64,000 nucleotides of DNA from Nitrosomonadales bacterium (GCA_947475825.1 CANJMS010000001.1:517-64516); one strand, 5' to 3'; counted from the first letter of the stretch, positions 116 through 15,297 are shown. Translations and numbers: made by a program. Notes: generated by a model not told the origin, from the sequence alone.

Positions 116-2059
116 TTAAAAGTAAAACAATATCGACAATAAGCCCGTATTGTCACTGCGTTTAAATTCGCGTTGACGTACCACATCCAGGCGCACAGCA
201 GTATTCGTGCTTAACGCAAGGCGTTGTTCCAAGCCCAGTATTTGCGCTGTATCGCGCTGCCCCAAGAGATACTGAGTGTTGCGTAAATAACTGTGCATAC
301 GCCAACGCGGTGTTAAATCAAACAGCCCGCCAATGCTCGCCCCCGCCCCCAGCGCGTAGCCTTTTTCAAGCGCGTGACTGTGTCGCGAGCTGCCATCTAA
401 CAGGACATACCACAATGCCGTATCTTGCTCGTTTGACCAAGCGCTTCCGGTGCCACCATCCAGCGCAAACGCCAGTGGCTCTTGGCCTGTACGGGCGCGT
501 GTCCGTTGCCATCCGGCAGCTATCTTCCATGACATGGACTGAAAAAATTCATCGCGTGGAGCCAGCGACAAAATGCTAACAGGCGTAAATTTTTCGACCC
601 GTGTTGTGCCGAGATCGTAATGGCGTAGTGCCAAGCTGAAAAATTCAACCTGTGCGCCGCGTGCATATCCGTCGTCGGCATCCATGATGTCATGATAGGT
701 GGCGCGCACTTTCAATTCTTGAAATGCTTGTTCATCCCTGCGCCCCGCACCGAGGGCAATACGCGATGAGCCATGTCCGCGATCTGGATGCGTTTTTGGA
801 GTGGGGATGTCGGGTGTCTGTGCGGCAACATCCAGGCGGTTGCGTGCAGTGAGCAATTCGTGCGTCAGTCCGGCAGGGTCGGCCACATCATTTTTGCCGA
901 GGGCGCGTCGGTAGCTGAGGTAATCCTGGCTGGCTTCGAGTACCGCCGCTACACGGTTAGCGGGCAGCTTGTGCAGTGTCGGATCGTCTACTGCGATGCG
1001 CTTGATGCTTATGCCCTTCACTAAATCGCGCTCTGCTTCGCTTAATTGTCGCAACCTGTGGCGCAGGACGGTGGCATTGGCTGGGCGAAACACAACTTGT
1101 TTGACCATATTCGGCTGCTTGGCGATTGCACCTACCGTGTCAGCGGGAATCGCCCACCAACGAAATTCGCTGGTCATATCCAATTCCGGGCGCGCAACCT
1201 GAAGCAAACCCAGCAAATGATAGGAGCAATTTTCGTCGAAGAAAAAATATTGGAAGTGATTAGCCCCCAGTTCCCAAGCGTGCCTCAAAACACGGTCAAT
1301 CTCTTCGGCATTGAGATTGAGTTGGTATTCCCATAGATCGCGATTCTCTAGCGCACTGTATTCGCGCACCTTGAGGTAATAGGGCATGTTTGAAAACACG
1401 CCAGGATAGCCGCCGAACAGGCCATTCACCGCAAAGGCGAGTCCGTTGCTTTCATCCGTGTTGGCCGCGAAGGTGATGGCGTAGGCCAACAATCTGGTCT
1501 GCTCATTTTGGTCTTTGGCATCCACTCTGATCAGCGGATGGCCGTACATTGAAGAAGGGCTATTGATGTAGGCCGAGGCAAAAATCAGCGTCAAGCTGTC
1601 GGGGTTTAACGCGGCGTGCCACTGTTGGTAACGCTTGCAGTCTTGGCGCGGCAAGCGTTGCGGATCGAAATCGAGCTGCTCATTGAGCCACGCATAGCGC
1701 GCCACAAAAGCACATTGTGGATTTTGCTGTGTACTACTTTCTGCCATGTCCGAATAAAAACTTGCCAGCGTCGCTTCGAGCTCTGCTTGAGGATTATTTT
1801 TGCCGTCAGGCGCGGTGTAAAACTGGGGACTATCGACCAAGCCATGCACACCCTGAGAAGTTAAACCAAGGGTAATAAGACCTAGGGTAATAAAATTAGG
1901 CACGTAATGTCCCAACTTCAGCCATTCCTGCCGTTCGGAGAGCTTGAGCTGTCGCGATTTTTCGACTAGTTCTGTGAGGTAGCTATGATCAGTTGCACCG
2001 AATGCGCGATGTTGCGGCAACCATAGCATCGCTAATATGATGAGGCATATCGAGCGCAT
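116..2059 (-). CDS. DUF4105 (Lnb N-terminal periplasmic domain)-type protein with signal peptide
   Basis: 647-aa ORF with signal peptide MRSICLIILAMLWLP...AFGA. The overall sequence is typical of DUF4105 proteins, which commonly neighbour DUF3015 genes. It contains an in-frame 15-nt tandem duplication (1866-1895, ITLGL x2). Confidence 0.65.
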   Translation of the reverse strand: MRSICLIILAMLWLPQHRAFGATDHSYLTELVEKSRQLKLSERQEWLKLGHYVPNFITLGLITLGLTSQGVHGLVDSPQFYTAPDGKNNPQAELEATLASFYSDMAESSTQQNPQCAFVARYAWLNEQLDFDPQRLPRQDCKRYQQWHAALNPDSLTLIFASAYINSPSSMYGHPLIRVDAKDQNEQTRLLAYAITFAANTDESNGLAFAVNGLFGGYPGVFSNMPYYLKVREYSALENRDLWEYQLNLNAEEIDRVLRHAWELGANHFQYFFFDENCSYHLLGLLQVARPELDMTSEFRWWAIPADTVGAIAKQPNMVKQVVFRPANATVLRHRLRQLSEAERDLVKGISIKRIAVDDPTLHKLPANRVAAVLEASQDYLSYRRALGKNDVADPAGLTHELLTARNRLDVAAQTPDIPTPKTHPDRGHGSSRIALGAGRRDEQAFQELKVRATYHDIMDADDGYARGAQVEFFSLALRHYDLGTTRVEKFTPVSILSLAPRDEFFQSMSWKIAAGWQRTRARTGQEPLAFALDGGTGSAWSNEQDTALWYVLLDGSSRHSHALEKGYALGAGASIGGLFDLTPRWRMHSYLRNTQYLLGQRDTAQILGLEQRLALSTNTAVRLDVVRQREFKRSDNTGLLSILFYF

Positions 2060-2092
2060 CTATTGAGTATTCTGTTTTATATTTTGAGTAAG

Positions 2093-2124
2093 AAAAAACC
2101 CAGTGGTGATGCCACTGGGTTTTT
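2093..2124 (-). terminator. Rho-independent, bidirectional-looking terminator after the DUF3015 gene
   Basis: The stem CCCAGTGG/CCACTGGG has a 5-nt loop and is flanked by an A-run and a T-run. Confidence 0.6.
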
Positions 2125-2140
2125 GTACCCTGCGTATGTA

Positions 2141-2632
2141 TTACAGCGCAGTTTGATAGCGAGCAAGTGTTGCATCTGCAGCCAATACTTCGCGCAAAGC
2201 GACGATAACTTGTTCAGTTGAGACGTTGTCACCGGTAAAAATACGTGCCATATTGTCTTTAGCCAAACGGTTGAAGGCGAGCTGGTCTTGAGCGGTCATA
2301 CCCATTAGATGGGATAGTGCAGCCAAAGTCTCACCACTGCCGACTGACATGTCGCGCGCCAATTGACCCTTGTTGCTATCAATGAACATCGCGGACTTCA
2401 TGTTCGAGTTCACCATGCCATCTTGTGTGCAGCCCAGCGTGCCGCTGGAAATGCCAAAAGTTTGATTGCCCAAAATGCTATTCGTGGTAATCGCCAACAC
2501 CTGTGGAGCAATGCCGGCTTGACCCTTAAACGCCATGGAGCCCAGGCCGCAACCGCCGACGTTATCATTTGCTGCCAATGCTACTGCTGGAAATGCAGCC
2601 ATCAAAGTTAATACTGTTACGAGCTTTTTCAT
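2141..2632 (-). CDS. DUF3015 family periplasmic protein
   Basis: MKKLVTVLTLMAAFPAVALAANDNVGGCGLGSMAF... shows a signal peptide plus the conserved GCGLGS start of DUF3015. I chose the internal ATG at 2632 over the ORF-track start at 2671. Confidence 0.7.
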   Translation of the reverse strand: MKKLVTVLTLMAAFPAVALAANDNVGGCGLGSMAFKGQAGIAPQVLAITTNSILGNQTFGISSGTLGCTQDGMVNSNMKSAMFIDSNKGQLARDMSVGSGETLAALSHLMGMTAQDQLAFNRLAKDNMARIFTGDNVSTEQVIVALREVLAADATLARYQTAL

Positions 2633-2940
2633 ATTTATTCCCCTATAGATTAAATTGACCTGATGAAACAACTAGCCATTCGACTAGGTTGTTAAAAGAC
2701 AACAACCAAGTCGCTGGTTATAAAGATTGCAAAGTAAAAAGACAACTGAAATTACGCCCCCCGAAACGTCCAGTGAACGTCTGTGTTATACTTGTATATC
2801 TTACAAGCTGTCAAATATGGCAAGCTGTCAAACATGTATTTCTATTGTTGCTGGCACAGATGCATAAACAGCGATTTTATCTTTAGAATTTAGATGCGCT
2901 TTAATAAACCCAAATAATCCATTGGAAATTTCAACACACT

Positions 2941-3100: not shown

Positions 3101-3136
3101 ATAAAAAAGCAGGCTGCAAATACAAACAGCCTGCTT
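3101..3136 (-). terminator. Rho-independent terminator of the FecR-domain giant gene
   Basis: A 10-bp stem AAGCAGGCTG/CAGCCTGCTT is followed on the minus strand by TTTTTT. Confidence 0.65.
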
Positions 3137-3158: not shown

Positions 3159-6100
3159 CTACGGAAGCGCACCTCTTTGTAACGCCAGCACCGGAAGTGC
3201 TCCTTCCTGAAACACTTGCACCGAGGCACTGGTGACGGGGACTGGTGCAGTTGCGCCAACTCCCGCATCAAAGGTTGAGATGGCCATGTTGATGGTGTTG
3301 CCTGCTAAGCCGCTAAAGTTACCTTGGATGTTGAGTTGGTCGATGGTGGCTACTTGATTTATAATTGGGCTGCAAGCCGAGCAAGTAGCCGTTACATCGT
3401 TGGGGAGAAAGGCTCCGATATGCGCACCAGCGCCATCAACAGATAGCGTGAGTGGTGTAGCGGTTAAAGTGTAGGCAACTCCTCCTACATTCCAATTGGC
3501 ATTCATCGATGCTGTTTGCGGTTGATTAAAATTCACATTCAAATTGCCACCACCAAAAGTGCCGACATTCCCCAGATGGTCGGTTGGTAACGTGCCGCCA
3601 GTGTGGTTAAAATTAAAAGTACCTGTTCTGGCAGCGATGACTTCCGGTAGCGTTAATGCTGCGGAGTAGGCGACATGAATGCCGGATGCAGGGGTAAAGG
3701 GTGTTGCTGGCAGGTTGGGATTGGCCAAGATGTTGCCAGTAATCTGGCCGCCACTCCAACGGCCATAACCATCTCCGGCGGGACCTACTGTGCCGTCAGA
3801 TACTACGTTGTTGGTCAGTGTGCTGACACTGTCTACGTTTAAGTGAGTGGCACTGTCCTGAAACAGGGTGTTATAGGCGATTAAGTTGCCTGCACTATCC
3901 AGTGTTTTGTCAGTGGGCAAGATAAAAAGCGGATTGTCGGTGTTGGCAAAAGTTGTTAGCCCAGTGCCACCCGCATACGCTACCACCGCGCCTGCTGGCG
4001 TGATACCGGCAGTGCTGCCGCAATTCGCGCAGCTATAAATTTGTGCGGAAGCGGTGCTGCCAGCGATGGATTGTGTGGCAATGGATAACGCGGCATAGTT
4101 GCCATTCGCTCCGGCAAACGCGCCAGTAACTTGGGTGCTAGCTGCCCCGCCATTAGGACAAGCCGCCCCACCAGAACATGTTCCGTCAATACTAGTCCCG
4201 TTGATAATGACAACGCCCCGTTGTGCATCGGGAGCTAGCGTGATATCCACACTGTTAATGTTGTGGGTTGTGCCATTGATAGTCCAATTCATCGGGCTCA
4301 TCACGCCATCGTTGGTTTGAAAATTCACAAACATCGAGCCAAAAGAGGATACACCGGCGATAAGGCCTAGGTCGTCAGTGGGTGTAGTGCCAGCCAGATG
4401 GGTGAAATTGAAAATGCCATGACGAGCTGCCACCACCGACGGCGTGGTCAGATCAAAACCATAAATGTAATGCACGCCCGTACCTGCGGTAAGGAAGCCG
4501 TCAATATTCAGTGCCCCATTGACCCATCGTCCCCAGTGCGCGTTAATGGCGGCAAGGCCGCCGACCATGTCGGTGACAGCAGTAAATGACAAAAGATTTG
4601 TTTCCACGCCACTTGCAAGGATGCCACCACCCGCTGTGGGATCTGCGGTAAATGACAGTAGTTTTTCTGTCGCCCCCAATCCTGAAACGATAGTGGTCGC
4701 CAAACCACCCGCTACACCAAAATTTGAAGCGTTGATGACTGGGCGGAATGTTTGAGTGGCTGTGGGCTCGCGCAAAAAGCCTTCTACGCCGATGATTTGG
4801 TCAGCGGCGCCACCATCCAAGGAATAATGCAAACCTATGCCTTGCGCGAATGCCCCGGTGAATATGCCACTTGAATTGAAGACGTAGCTTGTTGCGCATG
4901 TGATAGTGCCAGAGGTACAAGTTGCTGTGCCAAAGTCGCTAAACGCACCAGCAGTAATCGCAACCGGGGTGATTGTATTGTAGGTAAAACTGCGGTTACT
5001 CATACCCACAGTCAAGTTGTTGAGCGAGACCAGTTGCTTGAGGAAATCTACGCTGATGTCACCGCCCGTTATTTCTGTTATTTTCCCCGTTTGCCCGGCG
5101 CGATCTACCGCAATGCCGCCGATTGGCTTGTAAATACCGACGAGGTTGTTCGGCAGAACAGGGGCGGCATCACCATATAGATAGACGAAGGAATCTAATG
5201 GATTAGTGAAAGTGCCGTTAATACTGGTTGATTGATCCGTGATGCCATTGCCTATCCAAGCACCCCAAGCAAGATTACCTGCTATAGCATGGCGACCCGT
5301 GCCGAAATTGCCGGCGAGGCCTATGTCCAGGATGCGTTGTTGCGCGACACCTTCCTGCTCCACCCTGACTAGCTCGCCGGTTGGTTTGAGGGGCAGTTCA
5401 TCGTTCTTTGAAATCAGTCCGGTTGAAAATGAGCCGCCAGTTAAGAGTCCCGCTATATGCCCCACCTTACCTGTTACCTCGACGGAGCCGCGTTGCAGTG
5501 GCGGCGGGGGTAAGTTACGACAATCGCCTGTGGTACAGTTGGGGTCATTTACTGTCACTTTGGACTCAAAAGTTCTGGAAATCATGTTTGGGCGGGGATC
5601 ATGGTCTGAGCCGCCCTTAGCGTTATCTCGCCCCTGGTCTTCGCCAGCCTCGCGGCCAGCTTTTTCATTCCGTCCTTCATCGTCTTTGCCGGACTTTCCA
5701 TTTGCAACCTGTCCACGTCCTTTTAAATTATCAGCGACGAAAGAGGGTGGCACCAGTAACATTTCAGGAGAAGATTTTTCATCTTTCACATAAAAGTGCT
5801 CGTCTCTGCTGAACTCATTTTCGCCGGAGAGGTTGTTAATGACGATACGACTGTCTTTGTCGGATGCGCTCAACACGCTGCCATATACGCCATCTTTGGC
5901 ATTTGAGCCATCCGGGTTTTTACAATCGTCTTCGCATACACGCACCGCGTAGTGGGTGCCGCGTATGCCGATAGTGGCGGCAGCCGTTTTAACCGAGTAA
6001 CTTTTTTGATTGGATTTACCGATCAGGCCGGTAATGGTGCGAAAGCCGCCTTTGATGAGATTAAAAATGGCTGTTTGTGTGCCACCTTTTTCTTTGGCGT

Positions 6101-6431
6101 AGGCATATTGTTCCAGTTTGAACGTGCTTTTCTCGCGCAAGGCAACAATGCTCTGGTCGGTAAAGCGTACTTGCAGCGTGCCTGCTGCACCGGTGCGTAG
6201 CGTGTCTTTGTCTTCAATTTGCGAGCCGAAGCGCAGCCGTACTTCTTGTCCATTGCGTATTGCAACAGAATCCCCGACTGAGACCAGTACGCGTCCGGCT
6301 ACTGCGGCATACGCAGGCGTGGCTGAAATGTTTAGCAAAATCAGCAGAGCGGCTATCGGGGTACGTGAAATAAAAGTTGTTTTCGTGATGATCTTTTTCA
6401 TGCCAAATTTTTTCGTGCCAATATTTTTCAT
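3159..6431 (-). CDS. Giant secreted FecR-domain protein with three TbpB-barrel-like C-terminal repeat modules
   Basis: 1090-aa ORF with a Sec signal (...ATPAYA-AV, no lipobox). It has a FecR-like N-domain (GRVLVSVGDSVAIRNG...GIRGTHYAV), a charged linker, then three degenerate Gly/Thr/Ala/Asn-rich repeats. An alternative start is at 6401. Confidence 0.75.
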   Translation of the reverse strand: MKNIGTKKFGMKKIITKTTFISRTPIAALLILLNISATPAYAAVAGRVLVSVGDSVAIRNGQEVRLRFGSQIEDKDTLRTGAAGTLQVRFTDQSIVALREKSTFKLEQYAYAKEKGGTQTAIFNLIKGGFRTITGLIGKSNQKSYSVKTAAATIGIRGTHYAVRVCEDDCKNPDGSNAKDGVYGSVLSASDKDSRIVINNLSGENEFSRDEHFYVKDEKSSPEMLLVPPSFVADNLKGRGQVANGKSGKDDEGRNEKAGREAGEDQGRDNAKGGSDHDPRPNMISRTFESKVTVNDPNCTTGDCRNLPPPPLQRGSVEVTGKVGHIAGLLTGGSFSTGLISKNDELPLKPTGELVRVEQEGVAQQRILDIGLAGNFGTGRHAIAGNLAWGAWIGNGITDQSTSINGTFTNPLDSFVYLYGDAAPVLPNNLVGIYKPIGGIAVDRAGQTGKITEITGGDISVDFLKQLVSLNNLTVGMSNRSFTYNTITPVAITAGAFSDFGTATCTSGTITCATSYVFNSSGIFTGAFAQGIGLHYSLDGGAADQIIGVEGFLREPTATQTFRPVINASNFGVAGGLATTIVSGLGATEKLLSFTADPTAGGGILASGVETNLLSFTAVTDMVGGLAAINAHWGRWVNGALNIDGFLTAGTGVHYIYGFDLTTPSVVAARHGIFNFTHLAGTTPTDDLGLIAGVSSFGSMFVNFQTNDGVMSPMNWTINGTTHNINSVDITLAPDAQRGVVIINGTSIDGTCSGGAACPNGGAASTQVTGAFAGANGNYAALSIATQSIAGSTASAQIYSCANCGSTAGITPAGAVVAYAGGTGLTTFANTDNPLFILPTDKTLDSAGNLIAYNTLFQDSATHLNVDSVSTLTNNVVSDGTVGPAGDGYGRWSGGQITGNILANPNLPATPFTPASGIHVAYSAALTLPEVIAARTGTFNFNHTGGTLPTDHLGNVGTFGGGNLNVNFNQPQTASMNANWNVGGVAYTLTATPLTLSVDGAGAHIGAFLPNDVTATCSACSPIINQVATIDQLNIQGNFSGLAGNTINMAISTFDAGVGATAPVPVTSASVQVFQEGALPVLALQRGALP

Positions 6432-6440
6432 GTTAGGCTC

Positions 6441-7979
6441 CTATTGGAATTCGTAACGGACTTTGAAGGTGAGACTTTCACGCTGATACGCGTTTAGCGG
6501 GTTGTTGGAAGCGTTGTTGGCCACCAATAATTCGCTTTTGACTACTAAATTTTTGGCGATGGCGTAGCTGAGTGCGGCATCGAATGATAAAAAATGATCC
6601 TCGCGCTTGATGAGCAAAATATCCGCGCCCTGATATGCACTGTTTTGGTAACTGATGCCTGAGTTGAGCGACCATTGGGGGGCAGGAGTCAGGCTGACGC
6701 CAAGGCGCAAGCCATAAATATTACGGCTGAGGTCGTTGCGTACTGCACCTAGCGGGTTGTTGTTATCCTCATCTGCCAGGGTAAATGTACCTTGTAACAG
6801 CGGTTGGAAATTGCTGATAAACGCTTTGCGATAACCCAGGCTGAGTGCCGTATAGTTGGAGTTGCGTACTTGATTGGCTTCAGCGTATTGTAATTGTGCA
6901 TATTGCGCGCCGACATTGAGTGCTTGCAATTCGTCCAGTTGATAATTCCACTCGCCTCCCGCGCCAATGACATCTCGAAAATGATTGTCATCAACTTTCG
7001 TTGTGGCGTAGGTCATGCTGCCGCGAAAGAGGCTTTTCTCCATCAAATAAGAGAGCCCGCCCGAGCCTGCCATGTTGAGTTGGTTGAATAGGTCTTCTTT
7101 AAAATACATGCGGGTGTCGATATTAGCCGCGCCAAACAACGACATGCCAGGTGCCAGCGGGTGAGTGACTTGTCCGCCAGCAGCCAAATGGCTAAAGCCG
7201 TCGTCAGTTTTAACGCCCGAGGTGAGTTTGGTAAATCCAAACACGGGCAATACCATTTCCGCATTGTTCACGCCGCCGTTCACGTTGGTGTCGTAGCCCA
7301 ACCCCGCTTCCACATAAGCGCCAGCCGTAGTTTTGAAGCGTGATTCGCGCGAGCGAATGGCATCCATAAAGCGCGTGACGTTAGCCTGCACAGTGGGCGG
7401 GGGATTGGTTTTGAGAATGGCGTTAAATTCTTCCCGTGCGCGATTATCCTCACCCAAAATGAAGTAGCCGCGTGCTAATTCCAGGCGGGCATGGGTGCTG
7501 TCGGGAAAATTGAGAACGTATCTTTCCAGAGCTAACACGCCTTCGGCCGCGTGGCCGGAATCCAGCGCCGCGACACCAAAATAAAAATCAAAGGCCGGAT
7601 CGCCGAATTCATCGGCAAACTGCAGTCCCAATGCGTAGGCTTCGGCGGCTTTGCCTTGTCCGAGTAACGTTTTCATTCTATCCGCTGTGGTTATTTTGCC
7701 AGCTGGTAGAGTCCCAGTGAATGGCGTAGGCGTGCTGGATGGTGTAATTATACTGGGCGGGGTTTTCGGTTCAGGCGTGGCGGCAAGGGCACTATTCGAT
7801 AACAGGAATGCTGAAGTTGATGCAAGCAGAAATAATGTTATCTGTGATGTTATTCGGAGCTTTTGTCTCTGAAACGTTGTTTGCCAGGGAAATGTGCTGG
7901 ACATAGACGGTACTTTCAGCATGACGTTAACTTTCTGTGAATTGAGTTGTGTCAGAAGTATAGTAGCAGTTATTTTCAT
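6441..7979 (-). CDS. TPR-like N-domain plus C-terminal outer-membrane beta-barrel protein (Slam/DUF560-like)
   Basis: The protein has a signal peptide (...LLSNSALA-A) and a TPR-like helical region (AEAYALGLQFADEFGDP...NRAREEFNAILKTNP). A beta-strand-rich C-terminus starts at AGLGYDTNVNGG and ends VRYEFQ. The gene lies 9 nt upstream of the FecR gene. The start codon is uncertain (several in-frame Met). Confidence 0.65.
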   Translation of the reverse strand: MKITATILLTQLNSQKVNVMLKVPSMSSTFPWQTTFQRQKLRITSQITLFLLASTSAFLLSNSALAATPEPKTPPSIITPSSTPTPFTGTLPAGKITTADRMKTLLGQGKAAEAYALGLQFADEFGDPAFDFYFGVAALDSGHAAEGVLALERYVLNFPDSTHARLELARGYFILGEDNRAREEFNAILKTNPPPTVQANVTRFMDAIRSRESRFKTTAGAYVEAGLGYDTNVNGGVNNAEMVLPVFGFTKLTSGVKTDDGFSHLAAGGQVTHPLAPGMSLFGAANIDTRMYFKEDLFNQLNMAGSGGLSYLMEKSLFRGSMTYATTKVDDNHFRDVIGAGGEWNYQLDELQALNVGAQYAQLQYAEANQVRNSNYTALSLGYRKAFISNFQPLLQGTFTLADEDNNNPLGAVRNDLSRNIYGLRLGVSLTPAPQWSLNSGISYQNSAYQGADILLIKREDHFLSFDAALSYAIAKNLVVKSELLVANNASNNPLNAYQRESLTFKVRYEFQ

Positions 7980-8854: not shown

Positions 8855-9664
8855 ATGAGCAGTCGGATTATTCCGAAGGCGCATTTTAGTGCGAAAAACG
8901 TTTTGGATAAACTAATCAATTTAAATAATGTGCGTGTGGTGCTCAGCCACACCACCCATCCGGGCAATATTGGTGCGGCTGCGCGAGCAATGAAGACCAT
9001 GGGGTTGGCGCACCTATATTTAATCAATCCGCAGCGTTTTCCGGATCGTCAGGCCGAAGCGATGGCGGCAGGGGCGGATGATGTGTTGCAAAGTGCGGTG
9101 ATATGTAGTTCGCTGGATGAGGCATTGCACGGCGCAGTGCTGGTGGCAGGCATGTCCGCGCGGGTGCGCGATATTTCGCAGGAAGTGTTTGCGCCGCGTG
9201 TGGCGATGTCAATGGTGATGGAGCAGGCGGCAGCACATCCGGTGGCATTATTGTTTGGCACAGAAATGTCGGGATTGACCAATGACGAAATGGCGCGCTG
9301 TCAGTTTATGGTGTGCATTCCGGCGAACCCGGAATACTCCTCACTGAATCTGGCGGCAGCAGTGCAGGTGATGGGCTATGAGCTGCGGTTGGCGGCAATT
9401 CAGGGCGCAGTTGAACCGGGTCAGCGCGCAGCGCCAGAATTAGTGCCCGCGCCCGCCGAGCAGGTAGAGCGGTACTTTAAACATTTAGAAGAGACATTGA
9501 CTGGGATCGGATTTTTGCGCGACAAACAATCCACCAAGTTGATGTATAAGTTGCATAGACTGTATGCCCGCGCGCGTCTGGAGCAGGAAGAGATCAATAT
9601 TTTGCGGGGTATTCTGACGTTGACGACGCAATATCACGGTAAATTAAAGCAGAAAAGTGAATAA
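8855..9664 (+). CDS. trmJ: tRNA (cytidine/uridine-2'-O)-methyltransferase TrmJ
   Basis: SpoU-type motif [26 protein letters not shown]. The true start may be the TTG near 8903, because only 22 nt separate this start from the divergent suhB. Confidence 0.85.
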
Positions 9665-9666
9665 AC

Positions 9667-10419
9667 ATGTTTGACACAATTAGAGAAGATATCGCCAGTG
9701 TTTTTTCCCGTGACCCGGCTGCACGCAGCACGTTTGAAGTGTTAACGTGCTATCCGGGATTTCATGCGCGCTTGATTCATCGCGTTGCACATGCGTTGTG
9801 GCGAGCAAACTTTAAGTGGCTGGCACGTTTTGTGTCACATATTGGACGATTCTTGACGGGCATAGAAATTCACCCCGGCGCGACCATAGGCCGCCGATTT
9901 TTTATCGATCATGGTATGGGCGTGGTGATCGGTGAGACAGCGGAAATTGGCGAAGATGTGACCCTCTATCATGGTGTGACGCTGGGCGGCACGTCGTGGA
10001 AAGAAGGCAAGCGGCATCCTACGCTGGGCAACGGTGTGGTAGTGGGGGCGGGCGCGAAAATTTTGGGGCCGATTAGCATAGGTGATGGCGCGAAAATTGG
10101 CTCGAACGCTGTGGTAGTTAAAGATGTGCCCGCAGGTGCGACGGCGGCGGGCATCCCCGCGCGTATTTTAGATGATGCTCAGGCAGCAGCGCAGCAGGCC
10201 GACAAGAAAGCTGCGGCCTTTAATGCATACGGTATCAGCAACAATCAAAATGATCCGCTGGCACAGGCGATTCATGGCTTGTTGGGGCACAGTGCAGCAG
10301 TCGATCAACGTATTGAACTCATCCTTAAGCAGTTGGAAAAAATGGGTGTAGACGTAGAAGAAGCGCGCGCGACAGCCGATAAATTCGATCCTGATTACCT
10401 GAATAAAATTGTTGACTAA
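9667..10419 (+). CDS. cysE: Serine O-acetyltransferase
   Basis: N-terminal SATase helix region plus hexapeptide repeats ([31 protein letters not shown]). Confidence 0.9.
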
Positions 10420-10597
10420 AACATTCGGGTATTCTAAAATTCCCCCAGTTATTTGAGCCTAAAGCTATTTGATCCCAGTCTAATAGCTGGGCTTAATTTT
10501 TCTGGGTTTAATTTTTTGGCGAAAAAGTTTTTAGCAACAATCCTGTGTGCAATACCTGTGTACAACAAATTTCAGGCTGTGTATTTTGGGAGGAATC

Positions 10598-11086
10598 ATG
10601 CGTCTTACTACCAAGGGTCGTTTTGCTGTCACCGCGATGATTGATCTGGCCATGTGTGAAGGCACGAGCGATTCTGCCACGCCCAGCCCGGTCACTTTAG
10701 CCAGTATCAGCGAGCGGCAAAGTATTTCTTTGGCGTACCTTGAGCAATTGTTCGGCAAGTTGCGCAAGCAAGGCATAGTTCTGGCGGTGCGCGGGCCGGG
10801 TGGTGGTTATTCCCTGGCGCGACCGGGCACGCAGATTTCCATTGCCGATATTATTGCGGCGGTCGATGAACCAGTCGATGCCACACGTTGCGGTGGCAAG
10901 GCAAATTGTCGCGAAGGTCGGCAGTGTTTGACCCATGATTTATGGGAGGGGCTGACTGTGGCCATAGATGGTTATTTGTCGGGCGTGAGTTTGCAGCAAG
11001 TGATCGACAGTCAGGAAATAGCAAAAAAGAATATCGCGAAAATTACGCTGCGGAAGCGGGCAACCCCGTCAAGAGTAGGCGCGTAA
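10598..11086 (+). CDS. iscR: Rrf2-family Fe-S regulator IscR
   Basis: MRLTTKGRFAVTAMIDLA... with the cluster-ligand pattern C-x5-C-x5-C-x2-H (CGGKANCREGRQCLTH). I chose the internal ATG at 10598. Confidence 0.85.
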   Translation: MRLTTKGRFAVTAMIDLAMCEGTSDSATPSPVTLASISERQSISLAYLEQLFGKLRKQGIVLAVRGPGGGYSLARPGTQISIADIIAAVDEPVDATRCGGKANCREGRQCLTHDLWEGLTVAIDGYLSGVSLQQVIDSQEIAKKNIAKITLRKRATPSRVGA

Positions 11087-11122
11087 TTTTGAATGGACTG
11101 TAAGCATTAAGGAGTTAAAAAC

Positions 11123-11494
11123 ATGGCAATCAATATTACTGAAAGTGCAGCAAAACAAATTAACAACCAGCTTGCCAAGCGTGGCAAAGGTTTGGCTTTA
11201 CGCATAGGTGTGAAAAAAGTGGGCTGTTCGGGTTATGCCTACACGTTTGACTACGCTGATGAAGTGCGTGCCGACGATCATACGTTTACGGCGTTTGGTG
11301 CGAAGGTGGTGTTGGATGACGCGACGCTACCTTATATCGATGGCTCGAACTTTGATTTTGTCACCGAAGGTTTGAAGCAACATTTTAAAATAGACAATCC
11401 AAAGGTCGACAGCATGTGTGGTTGTGGTGAAAGTTTTAATTTCCTTTCCGAAGTTACTGTGCAAAAAAGTGCAGCACAAAAAAAGCAGGCCTGA
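11123..11494 (+). CDS. sufA: A-type Fe-S carrier (IscA/SufA/HesB family)
   Basis: ...VKKVGCSGYAY...SMCGCGESF signature. Confidence 0.75.
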   Translation: MAINITESAAKQINNQLAKRGKGLALRIGVKKVGCSGYAYTFDYADEVRADDHTFTAFGAKVVLDDATLPYIDGSNFDFVTEGLKQHFKIDNPKVDSMCGCGESFNFLSEVTVQKSAAQKKQA

Positions 11495-11525
11495 GTTGGC
11501 ATTATTTTAAGTTTTAAGCGTGCCC

Positions 11526-11648
11526 AAAAACCGTCGCGAGCGACGGTAGAACAAGGCGCGAGTGTGGCAAAAATGCGGAGTTGACTGTTATGTCAATGAG
11601 CAATTTGAGCAAACGAGTAACGCAGTTATGTCAAGCGCAGCAGGTTTT
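11526..11648 (+). repeat. Interspersed hairpin repeat, copy 1 (short form), between sufA and sufB
   Basis: Shares the core AACAAGGCGCGA...GCGGAG-hairpin-ATGAGCA...TTGAGCAA...GTTATG.C.AGCGCAGCAG with the copies at 17.7 and 47.7 kb (reverse orientation there). Confidence 0.75.
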
Positions 11649-11663
11649 AGAGGAATAAATTGA

Positions 11664-13100
11664 ATGAGTGCAGTTTTACAGAATATTATCAACCAGCCGT
11701 ATAAGCACGGCTTCGTCACCGACATTGAATCAGATGTCATGGCCAAGGGGCTGGACGAAAATACCATACGCATGATTTCGTCCAAGAAAAACGAGCCAGC
11801 ATGGCTGCTGGATTTTCGTCTGAAATGTTATGCGGCGTGGCTCAAGATGGAAGAGCCCACTTGGGCGAATGTGCATCATCCAAAAATTGATTATCAGGCG
11901 ATCAGCTATTACGCCGCGCCTAAGAAAAAAGCCAAGTTGAAAAGCATGGACGAAGTTGATCCGGAATTATTACGTACCTTTGAAAAACTCGGCGTGCCGC
12001 TGCATGAGCGTATGGCACTGGCGGGCGTGGCGGTGGATGTTATTTTTGATAGCGTGTCGGTGACCACCACGTACAAAGCCCGGTTAGCCGAGGCGGGCGT
12101 CATTTTTTGCTCAATGTCCGAAGCGGTGCATGAGCATCCGGAGTTGGTGCAAAAATATTTGGGCACAGTCGTGCCCACGGGGGACAACTTTTATGCTGCG
12201 TTGAATTCTGCCGTATTCACCGATGGTTCGTTTTGCTACATCCCCAAGGGCGTGAAATGCCCGATGGATTTATCTACGTATTTTCGTATCAACACCGAAG
12301 AATCCGGGCAGTTTGAGCGTACCTTGATTATTGCCGAAGAGGGCGCGTCGGTGACGTATCTTGAGGGCTGCACTGCGCCTGCGTTCAGCAGCAATCAGTT
12401 GCATGCGGCAGTGGTCGAATTGGTCGCGCTGGACAATGCCGAGATTAAATATTCCACTGTGCAAAACTGGTATGCGGGCGATGAAAATGGCATCGGCGGT
12501 ATCTATAATTTTGTGACCAAACGCGGCTTGTGCAAGGGCGTAAATTCGCGCATCTCGTGGACACAGGTTGAAACGGGGGCGGCGATTACCTGGAAATATC
12601 CCTCAGTGGTTTTGCTGGGCGATAACTCGGTGGGCGAATTTTATTCGGTTGCCGTGACCAACAATTATCAGCAGGCCGACACAGGAACCAAGATGATCCA
12701 TATCGGCAAAAACACGCGCAGTACCATCGTCAGCAAAGGTATTTCTGCAGGGCATTCCAATAACAGCTATCGCGGGTTGGTGAAAATTTCACCGACCGCA
12801 GAAGGTGCGCGTAATTATTCGCAGTGCGATTCGATGTTAATCGGCGAGCATTCCGGTGCTCACACTTTCCCGTATATGCAAGTGCGTAACAAGAGTGCCA
12901 AGGTTGAGCACGAAGCCTCGACTTCAAAAATTGGCGAAGACCAGATGTTTTATTTTGCCCAGCGCGGCATTGATGCAGAGGCGGCAGTTTCCATGATTAT
13001 CAATGGATTTTGCAAAGATGTGTTTCAACAACTGCCACTGGAATTTGCGGTTGAAGCGACGAATTTGCTGAGTTATAAACTGGAAGGAAGTGTTGGATGA
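11664..13100 (+). CDS. sufB: Fe-S cluster assembly protein SufB
   Basis: 478 aa with full-length SufB-like sequence (…[18 protein letters not shown]…). Confidence 0.95.
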
Positions 13101-13909
13101 TCATTCAAGATAGTAAAGTTTTGCTTGAAGTGCGCGGGTTGCGCGCCAGCGTCAATGGCACGGAAGTGTTGAAGGGCGTGGATTTTACCGTGCGGTACGG
13201 CGAGGTGCACGCGATCATGGGGCCGAATGGTTCAGGCAAAAGCACATTTTCTAAAGTGCTGGCCGGACACAAGGCCTATGAGATAACTGGTGGCTCGGTG
13301 CTGTTTGATGGGAAAGATTTATTTGCGCTGGAACCCGAGGAGCGTGCGCGCGCGGGTGTGTTTTTAGCATTTCAATATCCGATAGAAATTCCGGGTGTGG
13401 GTAACGGGCAATTTTTGCGCCTCGCTTACAACACCCTGCAAACCCGGCGCGGTCATGAAGAATTAGACCCGCTAGAGTTTGATGATTTCGTGCGCGAGAA
13501 AATGAAGTTGCTGGAAATGAACCCGGATTTTCTGGATCGCAGTGTCAATGAAGGGTTTTCCGGTGGCGAAAAAAAGCGCAACGAGATTTTACAAATGGCG
13601 ATACTGGAACCGCGCTTGGCTATCCTGGATGAGACCGATTCCGGCCTCGATATTGATGCACTGCGCATCGTGGCACAGGGTGTAAACCATTTAACCAACA
13701 AGAATAACGCTACCATTATGGTGACGCATTATCAGCGTTTATTAAATTACATCGTGCCGGATTTTGTACACGTGATGGAAGCGGGGCGCATTATAAAAAG
13801 CGGTGGCAAAGAGTTGGCGCAGGAGTTGGAGTCGCGTGGCTATGATTGGATACAGCCCGATCTGGATGTGAATTCCCAACCTAAAGCGACTGCACGGATA
13901 GTGGCATGA
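13097..13909 (+). CDS. sufC: Fe-S cluster assembly ATPase SufC
   Basis: Walker [10 protein letters not shown] and ABC signature [12 protein letters not shown] overlap with sufB. Confidence 0.95.
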
Positions 13910-15297
13910 GCGTAGCAGTAACTCATCAAACCCAGCCTGCGAACGGTTACTTAGCCACTCTGTTGGCTGGACATTTATCTGCGCCCAGCCCCACATCCCA
14001 CAAGGGGACAATGAGGGGACAATGTATTGCTCCCCCTGTTTTAACTGCATTGCAAGTTGCCGCAGCAGAGCGGGTGAGCGCGTTGAACGTGCCCAGCACA
14101 CGCGATGAAGAATGGCGCTTTACTGATATTTCCCTCTTAACAAAATTATCGTTTCAGCCCGTGGTCGCAGAGTCCACGCTGCAGCTTGCAGATATTGCAC
14201 GCTTTACCATAGCTGAGGCAGGTGCGCGTTTGGTGTTTGTGGATGGCGTGTACGCACCGCATTTATCGCATACAGAGCAGGCAGAAGGTGTGACTGTAGC
14301 CAATCTTGCGCACCCACTTGAAAAATCAGCTGCCCACACAGACGTGCGCATTGCTACGTATCTGGGGCAATTAGCCGAGTATAAAAATAATGTATTCGCC
14401 GCATTGAACACCGCCTGCATGAGCGATGCTGCACTCATTTTATTGGCGCGCGATACTGCCGTGCGGCAGCCGATACACCTGTTATTTATCGCGTCCAAGC
14501 AGGGTGGTGTCAGTTATCCACGCTGCTTGATCCGCGCCGAGGCGGGCAGCAAAGCAACCGTCGTGGAAGATTATGTATCTTTGCAGGATGAGGCATATTT
14601 CACCAACACGGTCAGCGAATTTTCGCTGGCGGATAACGCGCATGTGCATCACGTTCGCGTGCAGCGCGAGGGGATGAATGCGTTTCATATTGCCAACTGT
14701 GCGGTAACTTTGGCGCGCGGCAGCCATTATCAATCAGTGAGTGTGGCGATGGGTGCGCGTATTTCTCGCTACAACTTGAATGTGCTGCAAGCCGCCGAGG
14801 GCGGAGAATGCACGGTCGATGGGCTGGCGTTAATCTCGGAGCGGCAGTTGGCCGATACGCATACCTGCATTGACCATGCCAAACCGCATGGCATCAGTCG
14901 GCAGTTGCATAAATGCATAATCGGTGGCAGCGCACACGCCGTGTTTAACGGCAAAGTCATGGTCAGGCCAGGCGCGCAGCGCGTGGATTCACAACAAACC
15001 AATCGCAATTTATTACTCACCAATCGTGCCCAAGTAGACACAAAACCACAATTGGAGATTTTTGCAGATGACGTGAAGTGCACGCACGGCGCAACGGTTA
15101 GTCAATTAGATGGCGAAGAAATTTTTTATTTGCAAAGTCGTGGATTGACCGATGTGGTGGCGCGCAATCTGCTGACCTATGCGTTTGGTGCAGAAATTTT
15201 GGAGCGCATTCCTGTCGCATCACTCAAACATCAACTCGAACAGACCGTGCTTGAACAGGCAGGACTTAAGCAATCGGGTCTTGAGCAAATGAAGTGA
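13906..15297 (+). CDS. sufD: Fe-S cluster assembly protein SufD
   Basis: ATGA overlap with sufC. SufD-like body (…[12 protein letters not shown]…). The N-terminal ~40 aa extension contains a short palindromic repeat. Confidence 0.9.

What the first reader, a model, noticed from the sequence alone, without database searches (positions are those of the whole stretch)
3159..7979. Slam/DUF560-like outer-membrane protein paired with a giant non-lipoprotein FecR-domain protein carrying three TbpB-barrel-like modules
Seen in the sequence:
- The two genes run in the same direction and are only 9 nt apart.
- The upstream 512-aa protein has a signal peptide and a TPR-like helical N-domain. Its strand-rich C-terminus begins AGLGYDTNVNGG and ends VRYEFQ. 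This is the layout of Slam / type XI secretion (DUF560) outer-membrane proteins.
- The downstream 1090-aa protein has a Sec-type signal (AYA-AV, no lipobox Cys) and a FecR-like domain (…GIRGTHYAV…). A charged linker follows (KSGKDDEGRNEKAGREAGEDQGRDNAKGG), then three degenerate modules.
- The last two modules align clearly: AARHGIFNFTHLAGTTPTDDLGLIAGVSSFGSMFVNFQTNDGVMSPMNWTING versus AARTGTFNFNHTGGTLPTDHLGNVGTFGGGNLNVNFNQPQTASMNANWNVGG. Each is followed by a G.F.G.AG... segment.

Established knowledge: the pattern (Y/F)xG...G...(V)(D/N)F......G......G.F.G.A resembles the small beta-barrel of TbpB-type Slam cargo. Slam cargo genes usually sit next to their Slam gene.

Inference: this pair is a T11SS-like exporter with its cargo. 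As far as I know, a FecR-headed, unlipidated, triple-barrel cargo is not a described class. FecR domains normally act in trans-envelope signalling, so this may be a surface-displayed or secreted sensor or adhesin.
Basis: partly seen in the sequence, partly recalled or inferred. Interest (0 to 1): 0.7.

Follow-up and report, generated by a model that had tools for sequence, protein, structure and literature searches.

The report
Slam-type secretion pair, FecR-headed cargo
Two adjacent genes encode an outer-membrane pore of the Slam / type 11 secretion family and, very probably, the protein it exports: an unlipidated protein with a FecR-like head and three transferrin-binding-protein-like lobes, one member of a large cargo class in environmental Betaproteobacteria that I did not find described.

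Summary

**The pore (512 aa).** It scores above threshold on Pfam SlipAM/DUF560. Its AlphaFold2 model shows a TPR-like helical domain followed by a 14-strand barrel.

**The partner (1090 aa).**
- It has a Sec signal peptide with no lipobox.
- It carries a FecR domain, then a disordered charged linker.
- Three handle-plus-8-strand-barrel modules follow.
- The model's best 30 PDB fold matches are all TbpB or LbpB. Hemophilins and fHbp follow; all are known Slam/T11SS cargo.
- A sequence profile of the modules finds only TbpB and hemophilin in the whole PDB.

**The pairing.** In all 76 of 80 other species' loci that have room downstream, the pore gene is directly followed by a FecR-headed gene. 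Nothing else in the flanks is shared.

**The family.** It is large: 4,500 cluster representatives at E ≤ 1e-30. Members have one FecR head and 1–8 lobes, with the last lobe at the C-terminus.

**What is known and what is not.** Multi-lobe and unlipidated T11SS cargo are already described. A FecR-headed cargo was not found in the papers searched. I rate this a new variant of a known kind. Secretion itself and the cargo's function are inferred, not shown.

The parts
6441..7979 (-). Gene for the 512-aa outer-membrane protein, a T11SS/Slam-type (DUF560) pore candidate
   Evidence: ORF. Pfam SlipAM PF04575 scores 36.3 bits against a cut-off of 22. The AlphaFold2 model has pLDDT above 90 over residues 100-512.
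7341..7688 (-). Periplasmic TPR-like helical domain of the pore (residues 98-213)
   Evidence: Seven helices in the AlphaFold2 model. Sub-threshold TPR_16/TPR_19/TPR_14 hits over residues 135-199. 56 of 60 homologues hit TPR_19.
6444..7328 (-). 14-strand beta-barrel of the pore (residues 218-512), with a small hairpin (241-251) between strands 1 and 2
   Evidence: DSSP on the AlphaFold2 model shows 14 long strands. Among barrel-only PDB matches, TM-scores per target length reach about 0.6-0.67 for CymA, OmpG and NanC.
6438..6442 (-). AGGAG ribosome-binding site for the cargo gene, overlapping the pore gene's stop codon; the intergenic gap is 9 nt
   Evidence: Read directly from the sequence.
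3159..6431 (-). Gene for the 1090-aa FecR-headed, three-lobe protein, the predicted cargo
   Evidence: ORF. Identical protein on 13 metagenome contigs.
6306..6431 (-). Sec (signal peptidase I type) signal peptide, residues 1-42, with cleavage at AYA|AV and no lipobox
   Evidence: Read from the sequence. The family-wide pattern is AxA followed by a mature N-terminus A(E/D)xxGRVL.
5757..6302 (-). FecR-like beta domain, the head (residues 44-225)
   Evidence: Pfam FecR scores 45.8 bits over residues 76-167. AlphaFold2 pLDDT is about 90. Foldseek matches the PupR C-terminal signalling domain 6ovk_R at rmsd 2.9 Å.
5487..5726 (-). Disordered charged, low-complexity linker (residues 236-315)
   Evidence: pLDDT below 50. 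An equivalent linker after 'LEG[QR]' is found across the family.
4770..5483 (-). Lobe A: handle plus barrel (residues 317-554)
   Evidence: Family profile scores 61 bits over 377-545. AlphaFold2 strands with pLDDT 80-94.
4029..4574 (-). Lobe B: handle plus barrel (residues 620-801)
   Evidence: Family profile scores 83.5 bits over 623-799. Aligns with lobe C at z = 16.6. AlphaFold2 model.
3204..3845 (-). Lobe C: the C-terminal lobe (residues 863-1076; 8-strand barrel at 938-1076), the predicted T11SS targeting domain
   Evidence: Family profile scores 139.5 bits. Eight strands in the model. A C-terminal position of the last lobe is the rule in the family, 135 of 138.
3107..3136 (-). Intrinsic terminator-like hairpin with a T-run, 22 nt after the cargo stop codon; likely end of the two-gene operon
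   Evidence: 11-bp stem with 6 G-C pairs, followed by TTTTATT.

Best explanation
This is a self-contained two-gene type 11 (Slam-like) secretion cassette.

**Proposed steps**
- Both proteins enter the periplasm through Sec.
- The 512-aa protein inserts into the outer membrane as a 14-strand DUF560-type barrel, with its TPR domain in the periplasm.
- The 1090-aa protein is its cognate cargo. Its C-terminal TbpB-like handle-plus-8-strand-barrel lobe is recognised by the pore.
- The chain is then passed across the outer membrane.
- Because it has no lipid anchor, it ends up either released or held non-covalently at the surface.
- Outside, the conserved FecR-like head would act as the effector or binding domain. 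It sits on a flexible linker and a stalk of TbpB-like lobes that diverge quickly between species.

**Shown here:** the domain folds, the family matches, the operon layout and the obligate gene pairing.

**Inferred by analogy with TbpB/Slam1 and hemophilin/HrpB:** export, targeting through the C-terminal lobe, and the final location.

**Unknown:** what the head binds.
For: **Pore**
- PF04575 scores above its cut-off and is the best-scoring family.
- The model shows a TPR-like domain followed by 14 strands. This matches the published description of T11SS pores: an N-terminal TPR domain and a 14-strand rather than 16-strand barrel (PMC8406197).

**Cargo**
- The signal peptide has no lipobox, here and across the family.
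- The Foldseek top 30 are all TbpB or LbpB (E down to 7e-9). HphA/hemophilin and fHbp follow.
- A profile of 66 modules finds only TbpB (both lobes, E = 0.0013) and hemophilin (E = 0.025) among 177,635 PDB sequences. The VNF and G.F.GP.A motifs fall in register.

**Linkage**
- The 9-nt gap carries a ribosome-binding site, and a terminator follows the second gene.
- The pore gene is followed by a FecR-headed gene in 76 of 76 testable species loci. The same is true in L005 and L006, which were reached from the cargo side.
- No other gene family recurs in the flanks.
- Gallionella loci carry two diverged cognate pairs in tandem.

**Architecture**
- The rule is one head plus 1-8 lobes, with the last lobe at the C-terminus in 135 of 138.
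- This fits published evidence that the C-terminal barrel dictates T11SS specificity (10.1101/2023.03.15.532718).
Against: - No experiment shows secretion.
- Pfam TbpB_B_D does not match the protein. Only 2 of 66 modules reach E of about 0.05.
- Only 36 of 60 pore homologues hit PF04575 at E < 0.01, whereas 59 of 60 hit BBP2_2, though only partially at the C-terminus. PF04575 is also known to pick up PgaA.
- My PDB searches returned no Slam structure, so the pore fold could not be matched to a true Slam.
- TM-scores to single-lobe targets are moderate, 0.39-0.50.
- Conservation runs opposite to the usual cargo pattern. The head (49% mean pairwise identity) is much better conserved than the terminal lobe (27%).
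- All characterised FecR domains with a known mechanism act in the periplasm.
Confidence: 0.72

Rival explanations
1. Trans-outer-membrane tether. The pore exports only the C-terminal lobes. The disulfide-containing FecR head folds in the periplasm and stays there. The roughly 80-residue disordered linker threads the 14-strand barrel. The result would be a surface-exposed binding array physically coupled to a periplasmic FecR domain, acting as a sensor or an anchor.
For: - FecR domains of known mechanism work in the periplasm. The head resembles the PupR periplasmic signalling domain.
- Head and pore are equally conserved (49% each), while the lobes drift (27%).
- A long low-complexity linker directly after the head is found across the family.
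- The targeting lobe is C-terminal, so the head would be the last part to cross.
Against: - No signalling partner (ECF sigma factor, TonB-dependent transducer or kinase) recurs near the pair.
- In described cases, T11SS cargo is fully surface-displayed or released (PMC12282271, PMC9090332).
- A FecR-domain protein without an anti-sigma part, Lsa33, is reported to be surface-exposed (PMC3444417).
Confidence: 0.13
2. The 512-aa protein is not a protein translocon. It would be a TPR-porin for another substrate such as a polysaccharide (BBP2_2/EpsL-, PgaA- or BcsC-like). The FecR/TbpB-like protein would be a periplasmic accessory or plug.
For: - BBP2_2 is hit by 59 of 60 homologues.
- BcsC is the top Foldseek hit by E-value, because of the shared TPR-plus-barrel layout.
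- PF04575 is known to cross-match PgaA.
Against: - The model has 14 strands, not 16-18.
- BBP2_2 matches cover only the last 70 residues or so and fall below the cut-off in this protein.
- No polysaccharide synthesis genes occur in the window neighbourhood or recur in 80 loci.
- The obligate partner has the fold of known T11SS cargo.
Confidence: 0.08
3. The 1090-aa protein is a classical FecR-type anti-sigma regulator of cell-surface signalling.
For: The Pfam FecR match and the annotation 'FecR family protein' on homologues.
Against: - The FecR domain starts immediately after a cleavable signal peptide. There is no cytoplasmic anti-sigma domain and no membrane anchor.
- No ECF sigma factor or TonB-dependent transducer lies in the neighbourhood or recurs across loci.
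Confidence: 0.01

Closest known systems
Slam1/TbpB of Neisseria (surface lipoprotein assembly modulator with its bilobed cargo)
   Same: - The pore is a DUF560 protein with an N-terminal TPR domain and a predicted 14-strand barrel.
- The cargo gene is adjacent.
- The cargo is built of tandem handle-plus-8-strand-barrel lobes, and TbpB is its best structural and sequence match.
   Different: - The cargo here is not a lipoprotein.
- It has three lobes rather than two, plus an N-terminal FecR domain and a long disordered linker.
- No TonB-dependent receptor partner is present.
- The host is a free-living Gallionellaceae-type Betaproteobacterium.
- Sequence similarity lies below Pfam TbpB_B_D detection.
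Hemophilin-type T11SS pairs (HrpB/HrpC, HsmA/HphA)
   Same: - The cargo is unlipidated and Sec-dependent, with a C-terminal 8-strand barrel that directs it to a cognate adjacent T11SS pore (10.1101/2023.03.15.532718).
- Hemophilins are among the fold and profile hits.
   Different: - Hemophilins have a single lobe with a haem-binding handle, and they sit in haem/TonB loci.
- This cargo has a FecR head and multiple lobes, with no iron or haem gene context.
Sphingomonas and Psychrobacter multi-TbpBBD surface proteins (predicted T11SS cargo, PMC12282271)
   Same: Two to three handle-barrel pairs in tandem, with disordered regions, next to T11SS pore genes.
   Different: - Those proteins have Pro/Thr-repeat N-termini, are mostly lipoproteins, and belong to pore cluster 1.
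- This family has a folded FecR head, is unlipidated, and ranges from 1 to 8 lobes.
FecR/PupR anti-sigma regulators of cell-surface signalling
   Same: The head domain matches Pfam FecR and superposes on the PupR periplasmic domain.
   Different: There is no anti-sigma domain, no transmembrane helix, and no sigma factor or transducer genes. The context is a secretion cassette.
Leptospira LipL45/Lsa33 FecR-domain proteins
   Same: A signal peptide is followed directly by a FecR domain, with no anti-sigma part. Lsa33 is reported to be surface-exposed (PMC3444417). There are weak NCBIfam hits to both.
   Different: Those are spirochaete lipoproteins without TbpB-like lobes or a DUF560 partner. 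The scores are far below the family cut-offs (28 against 350 bits).

Membership tests
T11SS / Slam outer-membrane proteins (DUF560, PF04575) | Match to Pfam PF04575 above the gathering score | tested here: met
   36.3 bits against 22, covering profile positions 48-287 of 288; it is the best-scoring family. Caveats: only 36 of 60 homologues match at E < 0.01, and PF04575 also picks up PgaA.
T11SS / Slam outer-membrane proteins (DUF560, PF04575) | N-terminal periplasmic domain with TPR repeats | tested here: met
   Seven helices over residues 98-213 in the AlphaFold2 model. TPR_16/19/14 hits are below threshold here but present in 51-56 of 60 homologues.
T11SS / Slam outer-membrane proteins (DUF560, PF04575) | 14-strand C-terminal barrel (as against 16 in PgaA) | tested here: met
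   14 long strands over residues 218-511, pLDDT above 90. This is a prediction only. My PDB searches returned no Slam structure to compare with.
T11SS / Slam outer-membrane proteins (DUF560, PF04575) | Adjacent gene for a cargo with a C-terminal 8-strand TbpB-like barrel | tested here: met
   9-nt gap in the window. The arrangement holds in 76 of 76 testable loci. The cargo fold is shown.
T11SS / Slam outer-membrane proteins (DUF560, PF04575) | Cargo reaches the surface or the medium only when the pore is present | not testable with these tools
   Needs co-expression or knockout assays.
T11SS cargo (TbpB / hemophilin / fHbp type) | Sec signal peptide (type I or type II) | tested here: met
   A hydrophobic leader ending AYA|AV. 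The family-wide pattern is AxA followed by A(E/D)xxGRVL, with no lipobox at the cleavage site. Read by eye and by regular expression; no SignalP was available.
T11SS cargo (TbpB / hemophilin / fHbp type) | C-terminal handle plus 8-strand barrel fold | tested here: met
   Eight strands over residues 938-1076. Foldseek's top hits are TbpB, LbpB, HphA and fHbp. The module profile hits only TbpB and hemophilin in the PDB.
T11SS cargo (TbpB / hemophilin / fHbp type) | Match to Pfam TbpB_B_D (PF01298) or the lipoprotein C domain | tested here: not met
   No hit for the protein at E <= 1. Only 2 of 66 modules reach E of about 0.05. The relationship is remote.
FecR-type anti-sigma regulators | Pfam FecR domain | tested here: met
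   45.8 bits against 24.
FecR-type anti-sigma regulators | Cytoplasmic anti-sigma domain plus a transmembrane helix N-terminal to the FecR domain | tested here: not met
   The FecR domain begins about 2 residues after the predicted signal-peptide cleavage site.
FecR-type anti-sigma regulators | Neighbouring ECF sigma factor and TonB-dependent transducer | tested here: not met
   None within +/-10 kb. None recurs in the 83 loci clustered.
Exopolysaccharide TPR-porins (PgaA, BcsC, PelB) and BBP2_2/EpsL | 16-18-strand barrel with adjacent polysaccharide synthesis genes; full-length family match | tested here: not met
   14 strands. The BBP2_2 match covers only profile positions 310-377 and scores 22.4 bits, below the 23.7 cut-off. 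EpsL scores 17 bits against 275. There is no EPS gene context.

The most novel reading that the evidence does not exclude
The protein is not simply secreted but spans the outer membrane. Its TbpB-like lobes would be displayed outside, and the disordered linker would sit in the lumen of the Slam-type barrel. The conserved FecR domain would remain in the periplasm. There it would report on, or anchor, whatever the surface lobes bind. That would be a new kind of trans-outer-membrane sensor built on a type 11 secretion pore.
Probability: 0.12. Interest if true: 0.85.

Novelty: new variant of a known kind. Interest (0 to 1): 0.6.

Why it matters
All verified type 11 secretion cargo comes from one animal-associated pore cluster. 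The authors who defined the system state that the other nine clusters transport unknown cargo (PMC8406197). For the marine cluster 3 they could not find barrel-type cargo at all (PMC12282271).

This locus gives an environmental Betaproteobacterial pore subfamily a cargo candidate that is adjacent in every testable case. The cargo's TbpB-like barrels are too diverged for Pfam to detect. So the questions 'do distant T11SS still use the barrel signal?' and 'what do free-living bacteria secrete with it?' become directly testable with a two-gene construct.

The finding also re-labels thousands of database entries now called 'FecR family protein'. Finally, it places a FecR domain outside its usual anti-sigma setting.

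Tried and rejected
- **BLASTP self-comparison.** BLASTP of the 1090-aa protein against itself returned only the identity hit. Smith-Waterman alignment with shuffles, and a family HMM, were needed to see the repeats.
- **Whole-protein profile searches of PDB sequences.** The pore and cargo profiles (A1, A2) gave only TPR and low-complexity noise. Only the module-only profile (A3) was informative.
- **Foldseek on the pore model.** It cannot confirm Slam membership, because no Slam structure appeared among the PDB hits. It returned generic barrels, plus BcsC for the TPR-plus-barrel layout.
- **Third word-indexed homologue search, with the module profile.** It found only short fragments and no bridge to annotated TbpB-like proteins.
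- **Exhaustive representative search.** It was run with the full-length alignment instead.
- **FKBP26_IF hit at residues 435-463.** It is below its cut-off and judged spurious.
- **Window neighbours as part of the system.** DUF3015, Lnb_N/DUF7840 and SuhB do not accompany the pair in other species.
- **Literature searches.** A search for DUF560 together with FecR found no paper. FecR appears in T11SS papers only as the classical FecI/FecR iron regulator near cluster-1 loci, where it was filtered out as non-specific.
- **RNA genes.** No tRNA or Rfam hits occur in the window.


Full report
**1. What is in the sequence**

Both genes are on the minus strand. The 512-aa ORF lies at 6441..7979 and the 1090-aa ORF at 3159..6431. 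The gap between them is exactly 9 nt (GAGCCTAAC). An AGGAG ribosome-binding site overlaps the first gene's TAG stop codon.

A strong terminator-like hairpin follows the second gene. It has an 11-bp stem with six G-C pairs, then TTTTATT, at 3136..3107, 22 nt after the stop codon. The two genes therefore look like the last two cistrons of one transcription unit, or the only two.

The identical 1090-aa protein is carried on 13 metagenome contigs. The closest named relatives come from Candidatus Nitrotoga, Gallionella and Gallionellaceae MAGs.

**2. The 512-aa protein**

- *Family match.* Pfam's best family is SlipAM/DUF560 (PF04575): 36.3 bits against a cut-off of 22, with residues 268-510 matching profile positions 48-287 of 288. 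Weak TPR hits cover residues 135-199. BBP2_2 matches only the last 70 residues or so and falls below its cut-off. NCBIfam offers nothing useful.
- *Predicted structure.* An AlphaFold2 model built on 60 homologues has pLDDT above 90 from residue 100 onwards. It shows seven helices (98-213) and then 14 long strands (218-511). A small hairpin sits between strands 1 and 2.
- *Agreement with the literature.* This is the published description of type 11 secretion pores: a periplasmic TPR domain and a 14-strand barrel, as against 16 strands in PgaA (PMC8406197).
- *Caveats.*
  - Only 36 of 60 homologues hit PF04575 at E < 0.01, while 59 of 60 hit the C-terminal end of BBP2_2. This family therefore sits at the edge of DUF560.
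  - My PDB searches returned no Slam structure. Foldseek returned only generic 14-strand barrels (CymA, OmpG, FadL), plus BcsC for its TPR-plus-barrel layout.

**3. The 1090-aa protein**

- *Signal peptide.* The leader ends AYA|AV with no cysteine. Across the family, cleavage follows an AxA motif and the mature protein starts A(E/D)xxGRVL. These are Sec-exported, unlipidated proteins.
- *Head.* Pfam finds a FecR domain (45.8 bits). AlphaFold2 models residues 44-225 as a confident beta domain. Foldseek superposes it on the periplasmic signalling domain of the anti-sigma regulator PupR (6ovk_R, rmsd 2.9 Å). There is no anti-sigma domain and no membrane helix in front of it.
- *Linker.* Residues 236-315 are disordered and highly charged. 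An equivalent low-complexity linker after a conserved LEG[QR] motif is found across the family.
- *Lobes.* Three modules follow. B and C align at z = 16.6. A is weak in pairwise comparison. A family profile still detects all three, at 377-545, 623-799 and 863-1075. Each is modelled as a small sheet (handle) plus a barrel, and the last has eight clear strands over 938-1076.

**4. What the modules are**

- *By fold.* Foldseek compared the template-free model with 350,542 PDB chains. The first 30 hits were TbpB or LbpB only (E down to 7e-9, aligned over about 600 columns, that is two consecutive lobes). HphA/hemophilin, the LbpB N-lobe and fHbp followed. Every one of these is an experimentally established Slam/T11SS cargo.
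- *By sequence.* An HMM of 66 modules from many species was searched against all 177,635 distinct PDB sequences at E <= 10. It returned exactly two hits. One was Neisseria gonorrhoeae TbpB (E = 0.0013, matching both of its lobes). The other was a hemophilin (E = 0.025). The 'VNF' strand and the 'G.F.GP.A.ELG' strand aligned in register.
- *Limit.* Pfam TbpB_B_D itself is not matched; only 2 of 66 modules reach E of about 0.05. The homology is real but remote.
- *A lead from memory, not a test.* Many family members end in [FY]-K-R. As I recall, TbpB ends in ...VFGAKRQ.

**5. Is the pairing real?**

- *Adjacency.* A scan of one genome per GTDB species returned 80 loci encoding a relative of the pore. 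Four contigs end within 160 nt of the pore gene and cannot be tested. In all 76 others, a gene with this FecR head follows on the same strand, typically with a gap of -4 to +39 nt.
- *From the cargo side.* Two loci reached through cargo homologues show the same arrangement.
- *Flanks.* Clustering all flanking ORFs shows that only these two families recur. The next most frequent families are housekeeping genes syntenic within one lineage. The window's own neighbours (SuhB, DUF3015, Lnb_N/DUF7840) do not travel with the pair.
- *Duplicated pairs.* Gallionella loci carry two pairs in tandem. The second pore is only 25% identical to the window's. This is the pattern expected for cognate pore-cargo pairs.

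**6. The family**

An exhaustive HMMER scan of 1.84 billion cluster representatives gave 4,500 proteins at E <= 1e-30. Some of these may match mainly through the FecR head. Among the 141 new top hits:

- 140 have a single N-terminal FecR head.
- The number of lobes ranges from 1 to 8, and lengths reach 3351 aa.
- The last lobe lies within 40 residues of the C-terminus in 135 of 138.

Across 51 species pairs, mean pairwise identity is 49% for the head, 49% for the pore, and only 27% for the terminal lobe.

**7. Most likely mechanism**

By analogy with Slam1/TbpB (PMC9090332) and the hemophilin systems, the steps would be as follows. In the hemophilin systems the C-terminal barrel dictates which T11SS is used (10.1101/2023.03.15.532718).

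- The cargo crosses the inner membrane through Sec.
- It is recognised through its C-terminal lobe.
- It passes through the 14-strand pore.
- Lacking a lipid anchor, it is released or held non-covalently at the surface.
- The conserved FecR head is the likely effector. The lobes would form a variable stalk, or additional binding sites.

Leptospira Lsa33 offers a precedent for a FecR domain outside the cell. It is a signal-peptide-plus-FecR protein reported to be surface-exposed and adhesive (PMC3444417).

Export, final location and ligand are all inference. I put about 0.72 on the secretion-pair reading.

**8. Rivals**

- *Tethered topology (about 0.13).* The head stays in the periplasm, the linker threads the pore, and the lobes are outside. 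This is suggested by the periplasmic habit of FecR domains, the universal linker, and the equal conservation of head and pore. Against it, no signalling partner recurs near the pair.
- *Non-protein porin (about 0.08).* The 14 strands, the gene context and the partner's fold all argue against it.
- *Classical FecR anti-sigma regulator.* The architecture excludes it.

**9. Novelty**

Already described (PMC12282271):
- unlipidated T11SS cargo (hemophilins);
- cargo with two or three handle-barrel pairs (the Sphingomonas and Psychrobacter surface proteins).

Not found in the literature searched:
- No paper contains both DUF560 and FecR.
- In the T11SS co-occurrence study, FecR appears only alongside sigma-70 domains and was discarded as non-specific.
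- I therefore found no description of a FecR-headed cargo, of this pore subfamily's cargo, or of the 1-8 lobe series.

The authors of the T11SS work state that the nine non-cluster-1 subfamilies transport unknown cargo. This finding is therefore a new variant of a known kind. It is abundant in groundwater, soil and freshwater Betaproteobacteria, and it is currently annotated only as 'FecR family protein' or 'outer membrane beta-barrel protein'.

Noticed in passing
window 116-2671 (-): Downstream of the terminator lie a DUF3015 protein (2141-2671) and a 647-aa DUF7843 / Lnb_N (formerly DUF4105) / DUF7840 protein (116-2059). The latter has a signal peptide and an OMP-like C-terminus, ...LSILFYF. 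This looks like a separate envelope gene pair of unknown function. It does not accompany the T11SS pair in other species.
   Followed up: partly
L074 1437-10241 and L077 1548-10206 (Gallionella MAGs): Two pore-plus-FecR-cargo pairs sit in tandem. The first has a one-lobe cargo (about 600-630 aa) and the second a cargo of about 1113-1123 aa; three lobes were detected in L077, only the C-terminal one in L074. The second pore is only 25% identical to the window's pore. In L074 it is split into two ORFs, possibly by a frameshift.
   Followed up: partly
P0192 (3351 aa), P0205, P0196 and others: Much larger relatives exist, with a single FecR head and up to 8 TbpB-like lobes. The lobe number forms a series from 1 to 8 across the family.
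   Followed up: partly
L082 11032-11757 (Sulfurisoma sediminicola BSN1): An extra small ORF (about 240 aa) with a signal peptide and a FecR-head match lies directly after the cargo gene in this cultured species.
   Followed up: no
L062 and L071: Contigs labelled 'Clostridia bacterium MAG96' carry this proteobacterial outer-membrane gene pair. They are probably mis-binned contigs.
   Followed up: no
window 7704-7979 (-), residues 1-92 of the pore ORF: The pore ORF has a long, low-confidence N-terminus. The hydrophobic signal segment lies at about residues 47-66, so the true start may be Met20 or Met26. A Pro/Thr/Ser-rich stretch (about 67-95) precedes the TPR domain. Most homologues are about 75 residues shorter.
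   Followed up: no
cargo C-termini across loci: The family splits by C-terminal tail. Many members end ...[FY]KR. One clade ends in Cys-containing tails (...FKCSACP...YTCAPSC). The window's clade ends ...VQVFQE plus a Pro/Leu-rich extension of about 14 residues.
   Followed up: no
window 8855-15297 (+): Upstream and divergently transcribed is an ordinary housekeeping block: a SpoU-type methylase, a hexapeptide-repeat (Hexapep) acetyltransferase, an Rrf2 regulator, an Fe-S biogenesis (PF01521) protein, two SufB/D-family proteins and an ABC ATPase (a suf-type Fe-S cluster). No tRNA or Rfam RNA was detected anywhere in the window.
   Followed up: partly
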